A stretch of 64,000 bases of DNA from the human T2T-CHM13v2.0 reference genome, Homo sapiens: NCBI RefSeq assembly GCF_009914755.1, contig NC_060934.1, one strand, 5' to 3'. Numbering within the stretch: the stretch's first letter is position 1; every line of letters starts with the position of its first letter. Made by a program: the position numbers and the translations under genes. A model generated the notes under the pieces. It was not told the DNA's origin. It saw nothing but the letters and a program-made list of their open reading frames with translations, and did no database searches. Below, one piece after another: positions 1,703-8,502 of this stretch.

Positions 1703-1928
1703 AATCGGTGCTGAAAACATTTTAAGGAGGAATGTAGTTGACTTTAAGAAGCTATGTAAATCGGCCGGGTGCGGTGGCTCATGCCTGTAATCCCAGCACT
1801 TTCGGAGGCCGAGGCGGGTGGATCTCGAGGTCAGGAGATTGAGACCATCCTGGCTAACATGGTGAAACCCCGTCCCTACTAAAAAAATACACACACACAC
1901 ACAAAAATGAGCCAGGCGTGGTGGCGGG

Positions 1929-2280
1929 TTTCACTCGAGTCCATGTGAAGAGACCACCAAACAGGCTTTGTGTGAGCAACATGGCTGTTTATTTCACCTG
2001 GGTGCAGGCGGGCTGAGTCCGAAAAGAGAGTCAGCGAAGGGAGATAAGGGTGGGGCCGTTTTATAGGATTTGGGTAGGTAAAGGAAAATTACAGTCAAAG
2101 GGGGTTTGTTCTCTGGTGGGTAGGAGTGGGGGTCACAAGGTGCTCAGTGGGGGTGCTTTCTGAGCCAGGATGAGCCAGGAAAAGGACTTTCACAAGGTAA
2201 TGTCATCAGTTAAGGCAAGGACCGGCCATTTACACTTCTTTTGTGGTGGAACGTCATCAGTTAAGGTGGCGCAGGGCATA
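1929..2280 (-). promoter_or_regulatory. 3' LTR7, truncated (distal U3 and PPT deleted); retains TATA and polyA signal
   Basis: Matches 7409-7790 with about 10 substitutions, then joins internal sequence at 2281; CCTATAAAACGG near 2056-2067 and AATAAA near 1988-1993 on minus. Confidence 0.92.
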
Positions 2281-2331
2281 AGCTGCTTCAAGCGGGATTA
2301 GGGGCGGCATGGGAACCTAGAGTGGGAGAAA

Positions 2332-2544
2332 TTAAGCTGAAAGGAGATCTTGTGGTAAGGGATGATATTGTGGGGTTGTTAGAAGAAACATTTGTTGTAT
2401 AGAATGATTGGTGATGGCCTGGATATGGTTGTGTATGAACTGAAAAACTAAATGGAATAAGAAGGAGAAAAACAGGTATAAAAGGTCTAAGAATTGGGAG
2501 GACCTAGGACATCTGATTAGAGAGTGCCTAAGGAGATTCAGCAT
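2332..2544 (-). pseudogene. env: HERV-H env remnant (TM cytoplasmic tail)
   Basis: C-terminus QFIHNHIQAITNHSIQQMFLLTTPQYHPLPQDLLSA resembles the HERV-H Env tail; most of env is deleted. Confidence 0.75.
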
Positions 2545-2899
2545 AGTCCTGCCAGCAAAGATTATTTATTTACTTCAAGGGTTAAGAGTGGCGGTTTGGG
2601 GATAGCACGAGGAGATATCAGCTGTGACGGCTTGGAGAAACAGTGTAAACCGGCAGTGTAAACAAGAACAGGGCATGTATGAGTAGTTGAGAACAGAGGA
2701 GTAGGACTAGACAGAAAATAGTAGGGATGACAAGTTTTTTTGTGGGCACAGTCTAAGTTGGTCCGGTGTCTGGAATGAGACTGGGGCCTAATAAAAAGGA
2801 CCAACTATACAGGAGCTTAAATGGGCTGTACCTTGTAGCATTCCGAGGACAGGCCTGAATTCTGAGAAGGGAAAGTGATAAAAGTATTGTCCAGTCCTT

Positions 2900-4960
2900 T
2901 TTGGTGGCTGAGCTTGGTGAGGTGTGTTTTTAAAAGACCTTCAGTCCATTCTACCTTTCTTGAAGATGGAGGACTGTAAGGGATATAAAGGTTTCACTGA
3001 ATACTAAGAGCCTGAAAAACTGCTTGGCTGATTTGACTAATAAAGGCTCATCTGTTATCAGACTGTATTGAGGTGGGAAGACTAAACTGAGGAATTATGT
3101 CTGACAGAACGGAAGAAATGACTGCGGTGGCCTTCTCAGACCCTGTAGGAAAGGCCTCTACCTATCCAGTGAAAGTATCTACCTAGACTAAGAGGTATTT
3201 TAGTTATCTGACTTCAGGGCATGTTGAGTAAAGCTAATTTGCCAGTCCTGGGTGGGGCAAATCCTCGAGCTTGATGTGTAGGGAAGGGAGGGGGCCTGAA
3301 TAATCCCTGAGGAGTAGTAGAATAGCAGATGGAACACTAAGTTATTTCCTTGAGGATAGATTTCCACGATGGAAAGGAAATGAGAGGTTCTGAGAGGCGG
3401 GCTAGTGGCTTGTACTATAGCACAGCCTGCCTTTGCTGGTATGTGGCGATTAGGCCTGGTGGAACTGCCATCAATAAATCAAGCGTGATCAGGGTGAGGA
3501 ACAGGAAAGAAGGAAATATGGGGAAATGGGGTGAATATCAGGTGGATCAGAGAGATACAGTCGTGGGGGTCAGTTGTGGTATCAGGAATAATGTGGGAGG
3601 CTGGATTGAAGTCTGGGCCAGGAACAATGGTAATTGTGGGAGACTCAACAAAGAGTGAGTACAGCTGAAGGAGCCGGGAAGCAGAAAGTATATGCGTCAG
3701 GTATGAGGAAGAAAATAGATTTTGGAAGTTATGAGAACTGTAGAGAGTGAGTTGAGCATAGTTTGTGATTTTTAGGGCCTCTAAAAGTATTGAAGCAGCG
3801 GCAGCCGCTGCATGCAGACATGAGGGCTAGGCTAAAACAGTAAGGTCAAGTTGTTTGGACAGAAAGGCTACAGGGTGTGGTCCTGGCTCTTGTGTAAGAA
3901 TTCTGACCACGCTAACCATGCCTAGGAAGGAAAGGAGTTGTTGTTTTGTAGAAGGTGCTTGGGTTTGAGAGATCAGTCGGACACGATTGGCAGGGAGAGC
4001 ACATGTGTTTTTATGAGAATTATGCTGAGATAGGTAACAGTTGAGGAAGAAATTTGGGCTTGATTCAAGTAATGGGGGCTGTCTGTGAAGCTTTGCGGCA
4101 GTACAGCCTAGGTAATTTGCTGAGCTTGATGGGTGTCAGGGTCAGTCCAAGTGAAAGCGAAGAAAGGCTGGGATTAAGGGTGCAAAGGAATAGTAAAGAA
4201 AGCATGTTTGAGATCTAGAACAGAATAATGGGTTGTAGAGGCAGGTATTAAGGATAGGAGAGTATATGGGTTTGGCACCACAGGGTGGATAGGCAAAACA
4301 ATTTGGTTGATAAGGCGCAGATCCTGAACTAACTTGTAAGGCTTGTCTGGTTTTAGGACAGGTGAAATGGGGGAATTGTAAGGAGAGTTTATAGGCTTTA
4401 AAAGGCCATGCTGTAGCAGGCGAGTGATAACAGGCTTTAATCTTTTTAAAGTGTGCTGTGGGATGGGATATTGGCGTTGAGTGGGGTAAGAGTGATTAGG
4501 TTTTAATGAGATGGTAAGGGGTGCATGATTGGCCGCCAAGGAGGGAGTAGAGGTGTCTTATACTTGTGGGTTAAGGTGGGGGGATACAAGAGGATGATGC
4601 AAAGGAGGCTTTGGATTGGGAAGAAGAGCGGCAATGAGATATAGCTGTAGTCCAGGAATAGTCAGGGAAGCAGATAATTTAGTTAAAGTGTCTCAGCCTA
4701 ATAAGGGAACTGGGCAGGTGGGGATAACTAAAAAGGAGTGCTTAAAAGAGTATTGTCTAAGTTGGCACCAGAGTTGGGGAGTTTTAAGAGGTTTAGAAGC
4801 CTGGCCGTCAATACCCACAACAGTTATGGAGGCAAGGGAAACAGGCCCTGGAAAAGAAGGTAATGTGGAGTGAGTAGCCTCCGTATTGATTAAGAAGGGG
4901 ACAGGCTTACCTTCCTCTGTGAGAGTTACCCGAAGCTTGCCATCCGTGATGGTCTAGGGG
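2900..4960 (-). pseudogene. pol: HERV-H pro/pol remnants (RT N-terminus open at 4174-4539); boundaries approximate
   Basis: ORF has QYPIP...SPYNSPISPVLKPDKPYKLVQDLRLINQIV...YSVLDLKHAFFTIPLHP, typical gammaretroviral RT motifs; flanked by stops and deletions. Confidence 0.85.
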
Positions 4961-5452
4961 GCTTCCGAGGTGATCGGGCAGTGTCAGTCTTCAGCCGGTA
5001 AGCCAAGAAGGAGTCAGAGAGCCTAGGGCCAGAGTTCCAGGAGCTCTGGGAGTGGCTGCCAGGTGAGTTGAACAGTCCGATTTTCAGTGGGGTCCCACAC
5101 AGATGGGACGCGGCTTAGGAGGAATCCCGGGCTGCGGGCGTTCCTTGGCCCAGTGGCCAGATTTCCGGCATGTGTAGCAAGTTCCTGGGGGAGGAGGTTC
5201 TGGAGGAATGCCTGACTGCTACAGTTCAGGCGTTTGGAAGTTCTTGTGTGCTGGAGATGTGGCTGGGGTTTGTCTCACAGTGGAGGTAAGGAATTGCAAC
5301 TTTTTTCTGTTATTGCACACCTTGAAGGTGAGGTTAATTAAGTCCTGTTGTGGGGTTTGAGGGCCAGATTCCAGTTTTTGGAGTTTTATTTAATGTCGGG
5401 AGCAGACTGGGTAATAAAATGTATATTGAGAATAAGACGGCCTTTTGACCTT

Positions 5453-6661
5453 TTAGGGGCTAGGACTGTAAAGTGTCTCAGGGTTGCTGTCAAACGAGCC
5501 AGCCAGGAGTCGAACCTGAGTGGATTGGGTGATAAAATGCATATTAAGAATAAGGTGGCCTTCTGGCCCCTCTGGGTCTAGGGCGGTATAGCGTCTAAAG
5601 GTTGCTGCTAAGCAGGCCATGAACTGGGCTGGATTTTCATCTTTACCTTGGGTGGTTTCTTTAAGTTTGTTGTAATTAACAGCTTTGTAAGCTGCTTTTT
5701 TAAGCCCTTCAACTAGGCAGGAAACCATGTAATCTTGCCTAGCTATACCTGGGGAATTTGCCTGGTAGTTCCATTGGGGATCCTTTTGGGGAACTGCTCT
5801 AATGCCTTCCTGGAGGTCTGGCTCATGAAGCCGGCAGTTATCAGCATGAGATTGGGCTAGAGAAAAAACTCTTTCCCGTTCATCTGGGGAGAGGGTAGAA
5901 GTCAGGATGACACTTAAGTCACTCCAGGTTAAGTTGTAGGACAGAGTTAGATATTGGAATTCCTGTATATATTTAGTGCGGTCTGATGAGAAAGAGCCTT
6001 AACGTTGACTGATCTGAGAGAGGTCTGATAGAGAAAAAGGTACATGTACCCTGACTATGCCTTCAGCTCCAGCCACCTCTCTAAGAGGAAATTGTTGGGC
6101 AGGTGGGGAGGAGCTAGTCGCGGAACTAAACTGTAAGCCGGACCGGGTGTGAGGAGGGGGGGTGGTAGAAGGATTATAAGGTGGAGGAGCGGAGGCTGAG
6201 GAAGAATTGGGACTTAGCTTGGCCTGGCGACGAGCAGCCTGGGGAGGAGGGGAGAGGTCAGATGGGTCTGTAGAAAAGGAAGACTGGAAAGACTCAGCGA
6301 CGCTTGGGGTTGGGACTGAGGGGACAGGCGGGAGGGAAAGAAGGAGGATTTGGGAGGAATCGCATTGGGAACAGAGGCTAGGGAGGGAACAAAGTGTGAA
6401 AAATGCCTGGACGTAAGGCACCTCAGACCATTTGCCCATTTTTCGACAAAAATTATTTAGGTCTTGTAGGATGGAGAAATCGAAAGTGCCGTTTTCTGGC
6501 CATTTAGAGCCATTGTCGAGTTTGTACTGGGGCCAAGTGGTGTTGCAGAAGAAAATAAGGCATTTAGGTTTTAGGTCAGGTGTGAGTTGAAGAGGTTTTA
6601 AGTTCTTAAGGACACAGGCTAAAGGAGAAGAAGGAGGAATGGAGGGTGGAAGGTTGCCCAT
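5453..6661 (-). pseudogene. gag: HERV-H gag (MA-CA), one in-frame TAA at 5999-6001
   Basis: MGNLPPSIPPSSPLACVLKNL start, PPPY late-domain motif, MHR-like TTQGKDENPAQF; ORFs 5999-6703 and 5453-5728 share a frame and manual translation of 5729-5998 has no stop. Confidence 0.9.
5495..5518 (-). other. Captured 24-nt fragment of tRNA-Arg(ACG) 3' end inside gag
   Basis: Minus strand reads CAGGTTCGACTCCTGGCTGGCTCG (T-arm and acceptor 3' strand), as I recall human tRNA-Arg-ACG ending ...ATTCCAGGTTCGACTCCTGGCTGGCTCG. Confidence 0.8.
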
Positions 6662-7544
6662 AGTGAAGGAGACAAACCCTGAGAAAAGAGAGCGTAGAGA
6701 CATGGAGGAGGGGAGTGGGGTTCTTGCCCTCCAGAAAAGCAGAGAGGGGGTTGGGACACGGAAATAAGGGATTGGGGCACAGAGATAAGAGGTCAGGGTG
6801 CAGAAATAAGGGATTGGGGCACAGAGATAAGAGGTTGGGGTGTGGAAATAAGCAATTGGGGGGTTCTTGCCCCCTAGGAAAGCGGGACTTGCCGCTAAGG
6901 GTGAAGGAGAAGGGGTTGAGGGGTACTTGCCCCTGCCCCAGGAAAGCGGGACTTGCCGCTAAGGGTGAAGGACCAAGGCAGGTGTCCCTGCATGGTCTGA
7001 CACCCTTGAAAGGTGAGTGTATAATCAGAGAGGCGTCCCTGCAATGATTAAACACCAAGGGAAGGCTGCATTCCCAGTCTGTGACCTGCGCTGGAGTTTT
7101 GAGTTCATGGATAAAACATGTCTCTTTTGTCTCTGCCAGAAAATGAAAGGAATTGAAATTAAGAGAAGGGAGAGATTGAAGTGTGGCGCCAAGATTGAAA
7201 GGAGAAAGAGGTTGAGGGATAGTGAGGGAGGTTGGAGAAGAGAGTAAAAAGAGGCCGCTTACCAGATTTGAAATTGGTGAGATGTTTCTTGGGCTGGTCG
7301 GTCTGAGGACCTGAGGTCGTAGGTGGATCTTTCTCATGGAGCAAAGAGCAGGAGGACAGGGGATTGATCTCCCAAGGGAGGTCCCCCGATCCGAGTCATG
7401 GCACCAAATTTCACTCGAGTCCATGTGAAGAGACCACCAAACAGGCTTTGTGTGAGCAACATGGCTGTTTATTTCACCTGGGTGCAGGCGGGCTGAGTCT
7501 GAAAAGAGAGTCAGCGAAGGGAGATAAGGGTGGGGCTGTTTCAT
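6606..7544 (-). CDS. 312-codon LTR7/leader ORF similar to the putative ESRG (HESRG) protein; translation unproven
   Basis: TLFSDSARLHPGEINS.VAHTKPVWWSLH...GTSLGRSIPCPPALCS...LNPFSFTLSGKSRF closely resembles the ESRG ORF as I recall it, but is not identical. Confidence 0.4.
   Translation of the reverse strand: MKQPHPYLPSLTLFSDSARLHPGEINSHVAHTKPVWWSLHMDSSEIWCHDSDRGTSLGRSIPCPPALCSMRKIHLRPQVLRPTSPRNISPISNLVSGLFLLSSPTSLTIPQPLSPFNLGATLQSLPSLNFNSFHFLAETKETCFIHELKTPAQVTDWECSLPLVFNHCRDASLIIHSPFKGVRPCRDTCLGPSPLAASPAFLGQGQVPLNPFSFTLSGKSRFPRGQEPPNCLFPHPNLLSLCPNPLFLHPDLLSLCPNPLFPCPNPLSAFLEGKNPTPLLHVSTLSFLRVCLLHYGQPSTLHSSFFSFSLCP
6760..6972. repeat. HERV-H leader tandem repeats
   Basis: About 42-bp GAAATAAGGGATTGGGGCACAGAGATAAGAGG units, plus two copies of CTTGCCCC...AGGAAAGCGGGACTTGCCGCTAAGGGTGAAGGA. 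Confidence 0.8.
7257..7265 (-). promoter_or_regulatory. HERV-H major splice donor
   Basis: CTG|GTAAGC on minus, ~125 nt downstream of the PBS, where the HERV-H leader donor is expected. Confidence 0.7.
7389..7406 (-). other. Primer binding site, tRNA-His
   Basis: TGGTGCCATGACTCGGAT directly after the LTR; 17/18 match to the tRNA-His complement TGGTGCCGTGACTCGGAT. Confidence 0.93.
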
Positions 7545-7892
7545 AGGATTTGGGTAGGTAAACGAAAATTACAGTCAAAGGGGGTTTGTTCTCTGGTGGG
7601 TAGGAGTGGGGGTCGCAAGGTGCTCAGTGGGCAGGAGTGGGGGTCGCAAGGTGCTCAGTGGGGGTGCTTTTTGAGCCAGGATGAGCCAGGAAAAGGACTT
7701 TCACAAGGTAATATCATCAGTTAAGGCAAGGACCGGCCATTTACACTTCTTTTGTGGTGGAATGTCATCAGTTAAGGTGGGGTAGGGCATATTCACTTAT
7801 TTTGTGATTCTTTAGTTACTTCAGGCCATCTTGGCGTATATGTGCAGGTCACAGGGGATGCGATGGCTTGGCTTGGGCTCAGAGGCCTGACA
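7409..7892 (-). promoter_or_regulatory. 5' LTR7 (484 bp)
   Basis: Complete TGTCAGG...GTGAAA; two copies of a 31-bp U3 repeat; ACAAAAGA SOX-like motif at 7748-7755; TATA box altered to TATGAAA. Confidence 0.95.
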
Positions 7893-8502
7893 GCGGGCAC
7901 CTGTAGTCTCAGCTACTGTAGTCTCAGCTACTCGGGAGGCAGAGGCAGGAGAATGGCATGAACCCAGGAGGCGGAGCTTGCAGGGAGCCCAGATTGCACC
8001 CCTGCACTCCAGCCTGGGAGACAGAGTGAGACTGTCTAAAAACCAAACAAAAAACAAGAAGGAATGTAAGTCAATTTTTACTTCTGAGTACCCTCAGGCA
8101 AAGCCCTCCCATAGCACCCAGGTCGTCCACTTGCTACTACTTATCACACTTGTAATTATGTTTTAAGTTCCTTCCCCACTAGAGTGTAAGTCCTAGGGGG
8201 GCAAGAAGCAGTAATGTGCTAGTAAATGTTTAACAACCAGCTGTCCAGGTTTGCTGTCTCTTCAGTTTGCTGTCTCCTGAAAGTACCAACATGCCGGCTA
8301 CAGGCTGGTAAAATTCCTGCAAATAACAATAGATTCTTGCAAGCCAAGTAGGCATCCTGTGGCAGCAAAGGGCTGGCAGGGACCATGTTAGTTATCACTG
8401 TAAAATCTCCAGCACTGGCACTTGGTAGATGCTCAACATTTCTGTTGAATGAATGGCTATTCTTTTCAAGTTGAAGTTTCTAGAAATTCATGTTTCCTTT
8501 GT

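What the first reader, a model, noticed from the sequence alone, without database searches (positions are those of the whole stretch)
5408..5618. Provirus looks like a recombinant of two HERV-H lineages: 93-bp gag segment present twice at ~75% identity
Seen: 5408-5500 and 5526-5618 align without gaps (offset 118) with 23 mismatches in 93 bp, while the two LTRs differ by only ~3%. The copies are therefore too diverged to be a post-integration tandem duplication. Inference: the 5' part comes from a gag-intact HERV-H and the 3' part from the common pol/env-deleted type, joined out of register.
Basis: partly seen in the sequence, partly recalled or inferred. Interest (0 to 1): 0.7.

Follow-up and report, generated by a model that had tools for sequence, protein, structure and literature searches.

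The report
tRNA-bridged recombinant HERV-H provirus
This old human endogenous retrovirus copy is spliced together from two viral lineages, with a scrap of one host transfer RNA gene's sequence at the misaligned joint, likely a fossil of the viral copying enzyme hopping across a packaged, possibly immature, host tRNA.

Summary
The duplication is real: 70 of 93 bases match. The provirus (1929-7892, minus strand, LTR7up1) is a mosaic. Copy A and everything 3' of it group with common-type HERV-H. Copy B and gag up to about 6875 group with HERV-H loci that keep a 340-nt gag segment (diagnostic sites 57:1 and 65:1; AU tests). All 46 other loci examined carry the segment once. The leader and LTR weakly return to the common type, so this is probably a ~1.4-kb patch rather than a single crossover.

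Bases 5495-5518 are the 3' end of tRNA-Arg(ACG), and 5489-5518 match only one tRNA gene, including 6 nt of its 3' trailer (29 of 30). The junction is unique in the genome.

Best reading (0.68): reverse transcriptase jumped from common-type RNA onto a packaged (pre-)tRNA by 9-nt microhomology, then out of register onto the second lineage. This is the known 'tertiary-template patch repair'. Main rival (0.25): DNA repair or gene conversion with a templated insert. HERV-H mosaics are ordinary; a non-primer tRNA bridge in a HERV was not found in my nine literature searches.

The parts
1929..7892 (-). HERV-H provirus, 5,964 nt; listed as LTR7up1, full, hg38 chr10:25,768,956-25,774,917 in the supplements of PMC8912925
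   Evidence: (same span length; the LTR bases shown there agree with the window's 5' LTR)
7409..7892 (-). 5' LTR; carries a 31-nt tandem duplication (7596-7662) that the 3' LTR lacks
1929..2280 (-). 3' LTR, lacking the start of U3; a 208-nt deletion at 2280/2282 also removes the adjoining internal end
   Evidence: against L040 and L057
1924..1928 (+). 5-nt target-site duplication, left copy, inside an interrupted Alu
7893..7897 (+). 5-nt target-site duplication, right copy
2282..5501 (-). common-type backbone (3' gag, pro, deleted pol, env remnant); nearest locus L040 at 96.2%
   Evidence: RVT_1 fragment below cut-off
5400..5501 (-). copy A of the capsid-coding segment, common-type (99 of 102 to L040)
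5489..5518 (-). tRNA-Arg(ACG) bridge: tRNA positions 50-73 (5518-5495) plus a 5-of-6 match to the 3' trailer of gene G000:C6:26196557-26196586 (L032). Exact over 26 nt (5493-5518). 5502-5517 is not HERV-H. 5493-5501 is 9 nt shared with common-type gag; 5518 is 1 nt shared with copy B
   Evidence: tRNA numbering counted back from the discriminator base (inference)
5518..5619 (-). copy B of the same segment, second-lineage type (97 of 102 to L002)
5518..6875 (-). patch from the lineage that keeps the 340-nt gag segment (5645-5983); matrix and capsid part of gag; 5' boundary approximate (6875-6942, possibly up to 7105)
   Evidence: Gag_p30 E 1.4e-19 and Gag_MA E 0.0012 (below cut-off)

Best explanation
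The provirus is a mosaic of two HERV-H lineages joined out of register through a tRNA-Arg(ACG) fragment, likely made in one round of reverse transcription in a particle holding both RNAs and a host (pre-)tRNA. Inferred order during minus-strand synthesis: (1) RT copied common-type RNA up to 5501. (2) It re-annealed by 9 nt of microhomology (11 of 13) to the 3' end and trailer of the tRNA and copied 16-17 nt through the T arm, past position 58. (3) It landed with 1 nt of homology about 100 nt too far 3' on the second-lineage RNA, so the capsid segment was copied twice. (4) It copied ~1.4 kb and switched back homologously in the leader. The product integrated with a 5-nt target duplication into an Alu and left no detectable progeny. 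Shown: mosaic, tRNA identity, microhomologies, uniqueness, target duplication. Inferred: the enzyme, the particle, the order of jumps and the RNA nature of the tRNA template. No function for the host is proposed; gag is broken.
For: Mosaic: 57 of 59 diagnostic sites common-type over 3900-5501 and 65 of 66 second-lineage over 5518-6700 (20 common and 14 of 26 second-lineage loci). Discordant trees; AU p 0.0008 and 2e-13. tRNA source. Polarity: the tRNA reads in the provirus sense, as a template for minus-strand synthesis must. Landing homology: 9 exact nt with the L032 precursor against 7 with a mature end. Same age for patch and backbone: private changes 19 of 996 (1.9%) and 40 of 2940 (1.4%), half the LTR distance 1.4%. 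No other locus shares any of 5 tested private alleles of the patch. Precedent: host RNA 'patch repair' through a tertiary template (PMC4997597, passages); pre-tRNAs with trailers enriched in MLV virions (PMC4378196, passages); RT read-through of m1A58 in HIV proviruses (PMC12657518, passages).
Against: The base at 5490 matches the tRNA gene's trailer and none of 46 other HERV-H loci. A plain minus-strand jump would keep the HERV-H base there. Local rates favour 'trailer copied, then CpG decay' (9 of 80, 11%) over an independent change (1 of 350 to 9 of 902, 0.3-1%). That fits a DNA-DNA heteroduplex better than an RNA template. Trailer plus error-free copying of position 58 fit the tRNA gene as well as a pre-tRNA. 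The donor of the patch was not found (best 96%; only 40 of 1115 candidates were scored). The second switch is weakly located. No ape orthologue could be examined.
Confidence: 0.68

Rival explanations
1. Repair in genomic DNA at or soon after integration. A break in a common-type provirus was filled by copying ~1.4 kb from another HERV-H locus (homologous at the leader end). The nascent strand then picked up ~30 nt from the tRNA-Arg(ACG) gene or its cDNA and rejoined the other end by 11-of-13 microhomology.
For: Trailer-matching base at 5490 with a CpG-type mismatch at 5492. One homologous and one non-homologous end, with the same backbone lineage on both sides. A separate 208-nt deletion shows that the locus was rearranged, probably after integration.
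Against: tRNA genes are a minute genomic target, whereas tRNAs and pre-tRNAs are abundant in retroviral particles. The patch is not younger than the backbone, and no donor shares its tested alleles. The tRNA's polarity is the one reverse transcription needs; repair allows either.
Confidence: 0.25
2. The recombinant arose by the same RT mechanism in an earlier parent element, and this locus is its only surviving copy.
For: The patch has slightly more private changes than the backbone (1.9% against 1.4%). Several fetched loci are mosaics of the same two types (L003, L013 and L018).
Against: No second locus has the junction 29-mer within 3 mismatches. A T-loop motif next to the common-type gag motif was found nowhere (exact pattern).
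Confidence: 0.05
3. Local tandem duplication, or a duplication ancestral to HERV-H, with a chance spacer.
For: The copies are adjacent and gap-free.
Against: 46 of 46 other loci have one copy. Each copy is 95-97% identical to a different lineage. A clade of the two copies is rejected (AU p 0.0185). The spacer is an exact tRNA match (chance under 2e-5).
Confidence: 0.01
4. The spacer is the primer-binding site of an arginine-primed ERV (HERV9 or HERV-W type) inserted in antisense.
For: Arg(ACG) primer-binding sites occur in HERV9 and HERVW chains (PMC4724089, passage).
Against: The match runs 9 nt beyond the part that an 18-nt binding site covers and lacks the CCA complement. Genome-wide, the 22-mer occurs only in tRNA genes and here. 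The 30-mer picks out one gene with its trailer.
Confidence: 0.01

Closest known systems
Tertiary-template 'patch repair' at non-homologous retroviral recombination junctions (review PMC4997597, passages seen; the primary papers it cites were not held)
   Same: A short host RNA piece with fortuitous microhomology splints a non-homologous junction between viral templates.
   Different: Here it is a germline fossil in a HERV, the splint is a non-primer tRNA traceable to one gene, and it joins two lineages with a 102-nt duplication. The passages seen name 7SL and other host sequences, not tRNA-Arg.
tRNA(Lys3) inserts at deletion junctions of defective HIV-1 proviruses (PMC12657518, passages seen)
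   Same: RT copies tRNA past m1A58 and then jumps; inserts of 7-54 nt.
   Different: Those come from the primer tRNA, adjoin the primer-binding site and have the opposite polarity. This one is internal to gag and from a non-primer tRNA.
HERV-H inter-element recombinants (PMC8912925, PMC4724089, PMC6629862; passages seen)
   Same: Mosaics between HERV-H subgroups are common (500 of 1031 HERVH chains non-canonical in PMC4724089). The two types here likely correspond to the RTVLH2-like and RGH2-like or older groups (inference, not tested).
   Different: The passages seen describe block exchange, with no out-of-register junction or host RNA bridge.
tRNA/LINE-1 chimeric insertions (bioRxiv 10.1101/2025.02.02.635956, passages seen)
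   Same: tRNA fragments fused to a retroelement in the human genome.
   Different: Those are L1 products, mostly tRNA positions 1-37 in antisense, with 9-19 nt target duplications. This is a 3' tRNA piece inside an LTR element with a 5-nt duplication; that text has no occurrence of 'HERV'.

Membership tests
HERV-H / LTR7up1 provirus | two LTRs, gammaretroviral gag and RT homology, short target-site duplication | tested here: met
HERV-H / LTR7up1 provirus | subfamily assignment of the LTR | not tested
   taken from the supplements of PMC8912925; not re-derived
Inter-lineage recombinant | discordant placement on the two sides of a breakpoint | tested here: met
Inter-lineage recombinant | parents carry a single copy of the segment | tested here: met
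   46 of 46 loci
Inter-lineage recombinant | second, homologous switch back in the leader | tested here: inconclusive
   8 of 8 sites common-type 5' of 6875, but the lineage labels are not clustered in the leader or LTR trees
Tertiary-template patch repair | insert of host origin at a non-homologous junction | tested here: met
Tertiary-template patch repair | microhomology between insert and viral templates | tested here: met
   9 nt on one side, 1 nt on the other
Tertiary-template patch repair | formed during reverse transcription, before integration | tested here: inconclusive
   equal ages and polarity for it; trailer base at 5490 against it; orthologues not available
Tertiary-template patch repair | template was a co-packaged RNA | not testable with these tools
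   pre-tRNA and tRNA gene give the same sequence

The most novel reading that the evidence does not exclude
The joint records a nascent, trailer-bearing pre-tRNA-Arg(ACG) from one identifiable chr6 gene that was packaged in a HERV-H particle in the ape germline about 10 million years ago and copied by RT as a bridge between two co-packaged lineages. Such joints would be a readable fossil record of which host RNAs extinct retroviruses packaged.
Probability: 0.4. Interest if true: 0.68.

Novelty: new variant of a known kind. Interest (0 to 1): 0.5.

Why it matters
HERV-H mosaics are common, and their origin (template switching or gene conversion) is usually assumed. This junction carries a mechanistic tag: a host tRNA piece traceable to one gene. 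If it formed in a particle, it is direct fossil evidence that a deleted, non-autonomous HERV-H RNA was co-packaged with a more complete lineage and that pre-tRNA packaging, shown for MLV, also held for an extinct germline retrovirus. It suggests a simple genome-wide screen for tRNA and trailer fragments inside ERVs. It is a single dead locus with no sign of host function, which limits its weight.

Tried and rejected
Rfam scan of 5300-5750 at E up to 10 did not detect the tRNA fragment (2 chance-level hits), and ARAGORN finds no tRNA at the locus: the piece is too short for either. Sister copies of the junction: none. Donor of the patch: not found; nearest L002 95.95%, L027 95.82%, L066 95.57%; private-allele patterns gave no sharing locus. 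Other tRNA fragments: no 12-nt match to the Arg, Ser or Val tRNA genes held here in any other fetched HERV-H stretch; only those three tRNA types were tested. Leader and LTR trees do not separate the two lineages. Second-lineage loci were examined as 3.1-kb stretches around the junction (26 loci) plus 5' ends for 7, not full length, so pol, env and the 3' LTR were compared with common-type loci only. Papers not held, so not seen: PMC2168973, PMC2738136, PMC189744. The supplement table of PMC6629862 showed no chr10 coordinates. PMC8662619 had no relevant passage. Nine literature searches listed no description of this junction or of a non-primer tRNA bridge in a HERV; the library lacks most subscription papers and bioRxiv supplements.

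Full report
OBSERVATION. The two stretches align without gaps at 70 of 93 columns. The repeat extends to 5400-5501 and 5518-5619, 102 nt at 75%, offset 118. They lie in a minus-strand HERV-H provirus, 1929-7892, flanked by a 5-nt target duplication that interrupts an Alu. The LTRs differ at 10 of 352 columns. The supplements of PMC8912925 list a full LTR7up1 element of the same length at hg38 chr10:25,768,956-25,774,917 whose LTR bases agree with this one. There it is scored RNA 0 and bound by NANOG, KLF4, KAP1 and ZNF534. That paper places most 7up1 proliferation at about 10-14 million years ago (passages). The repeated segment lies at the end of a frame that matches Gag_p30 (E 1.4e-19).

TWO LINEAGES. 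The window's own genome could be searched. The best 40 matches to 5520-6700 and to 4060-5500 share no locus except this one (40 of 1115 and 40 of 1196 candidates scored). I compared 46 distinct other loci: 26 that best match copy B and 20 of the common type. Three duplicate fetches were dropped. These loci were chosen as best hits and are not a random sample. Each has the segment once. Copy A is 91-99 of 102 identical to common-type loci and copy B 92-97 of 102 to the other group (two rows with an indel not scored). Common-type loci lack 5645-5983, which the window keeps. Diagnostic sites are 57 common, 1 other and 1 neither over 3900-5501, and 65 other against 1 common over 5518-6700 (20 common and the 14 closest of the 26). 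In trees, 5984-6650 falls with L002, L003, L013 and L027, and 4601-5399 falls with L040, L042 and L057 (support 98). AU tests reject the two copies as a clade (p 0.0185), 5984-6650 with the common group (p 0.0008), and 4601-5399 with L002 and L027 (p 2e-13). Further 5', 49 of 54 sites from 6300 to 6875 are second-lineage and 8 of 8 beyond are common-type (4 common and 7 other loci). The leader tree puts the window with L040, L042, L052 and L057 but also with one second-lineage locus, and the labels are not clustered there. A return to the common type near 6875-6940 is therefore likely but not firm.

THE BRIDGE. Bases 5502-5517 belong to neither parent. The 22-mer 5495-5516 occurs 8 times in the genome: here and at 7 tRNA-Arg(ACG) genes. 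The alignment shows the minus strand reproducing the T arm and 3' acceptor strand, tRNA positions 50-73 by my count. The 30-mer 5489-5518 matches only one other place within 3 mismatches: gene L032 (G000:C6:26196557-26196586), including 6 nt of its 3' trailer, with one mismatch at a CpG. The exact match is 26 nt, 5493-5518. There is no CCA. The common-type gag sequence resembles that precursor at 9 contiguous nt and at 11 of 13; the other end shares 1 nt with copy B. The junction is found nowhere else within 3 mismatches.

MECHANISM. The tRNA reads in the provirus sense, so it can have served as a template for minus-strand DNA but not as its primer. The simplest path is common RNA, then tRNA by microhomology, then the second-lineage RNA about 100 nt out of register, then a homologous return in the leader (inference). 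Host RNA splints at non-homologous retroviral junctions are described (PMC4997597, passages). MLV enriches pre-tRNAs with trailers (PMC4378196, passages; 'Arg' does not occur in its main text). HIV RT reads through m1A58 into primer tRNA in patients' proviruses (PMC12657518, passages). Timing agrees: private changes are 40 of 2940 in the backbone and 19 of 996 in the patch, half the LTR distance is 1.4%, and no locus shares any of 5 tested private alleles. So the patch was not copied recently from an extant locus.

AGAINST. Position 5490 carries the trailer's base, seen in 0 of 46 other loci, while 5492 carries the HERV-H base. Locally, CpG transitions run at 9 of 80 and other C-to-T or G-to-A changes at 1 of 350 and 9 of 902. 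'Trailer copied, CpG decayed' is thus roughly 10-40 times likelier per event than an independent change. A plain minus-strand jump would have kept the HERV-H base, whereas a DNA heteroduplex can keep either. This supports the trailer as real template but also keeps DNA repair alive. I weigh it against the abundance of tRNA in particles, the polarity and the equal ages, giving 0.68 for reverse transcription and 0.25 for repair. Only ape orthologues can settle it.

CONSEQUENCE. Gag is broken: there is a stop at 5999-6001, and the 118-nt offset is not a multiple of three, so the frame that enters copy B ends at 5453-5455. No function is proposed for the joint. The RefSeq enhancer 7418-7962 coincides with the 5' LTR and is unrelated to it.

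NOVELTY. Recombination within HERV-H is well known (PMC8912925, PMC4724089, PMC6629862; passages). L003, L013 and L018 here also change sides between the two trees. The recombinant itself is ordinary. The non-primer tRNA bridge traceable to one gene's trailer was not found in nine searches (listings, plus passages of the papers named). Three primary papers on retroviral rearrangements were not held, and they may report tRNA inserts in vector experiments. Verdict: new variant of a known kind, interest 0.5.

Noticed in passing
window 2280-2282: A 208-nt deletion relative to L040 and L057 removes the internal 3' end and the first ~110 nt of the 3' LTR, with a 1-nt filler and no clear microhomology. 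The 5' LTR keeps this U3 part, so the deletion likely postdates reverse transcription.
   Followed up: partly
window 7596-7662: 31-nt tandem duplication in the 5' LTR only. Sister loci L042 and L052 also have a 30-31-nt gap between their two LTRs, while L040 and L057 do not: a recurrently unstable repeat.
   Followed up: partly
L018 (G000:C5:109073115-109076258), at the start of its single copy of the segment: A short deletion of about 14 nt ends at the same base where copy B of the window begins; chance or a switching hotspot.
   Followed up: no
L003, L013, L018, L021: These loci group with the second lineage in 5' gag but next to the common type in 4601-5399, so they are probably in-register mosaics of the same two types.
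   Followed up: no
window 1763-1928 and 7893-8040: The provirus sits inside an Alu, which bounds its age. The right half has a 15-nt tandem duplication at 7901-7932. The Alu subfamily was not determined.
   Followed up: no
L032:1523-1555: The source tRNA gene's trailer has only a three-T run directly after the matching 6 nt, with no four-T terminator in the next 30 nt, so its precursor may carry a long trailer.
   Followed up: no
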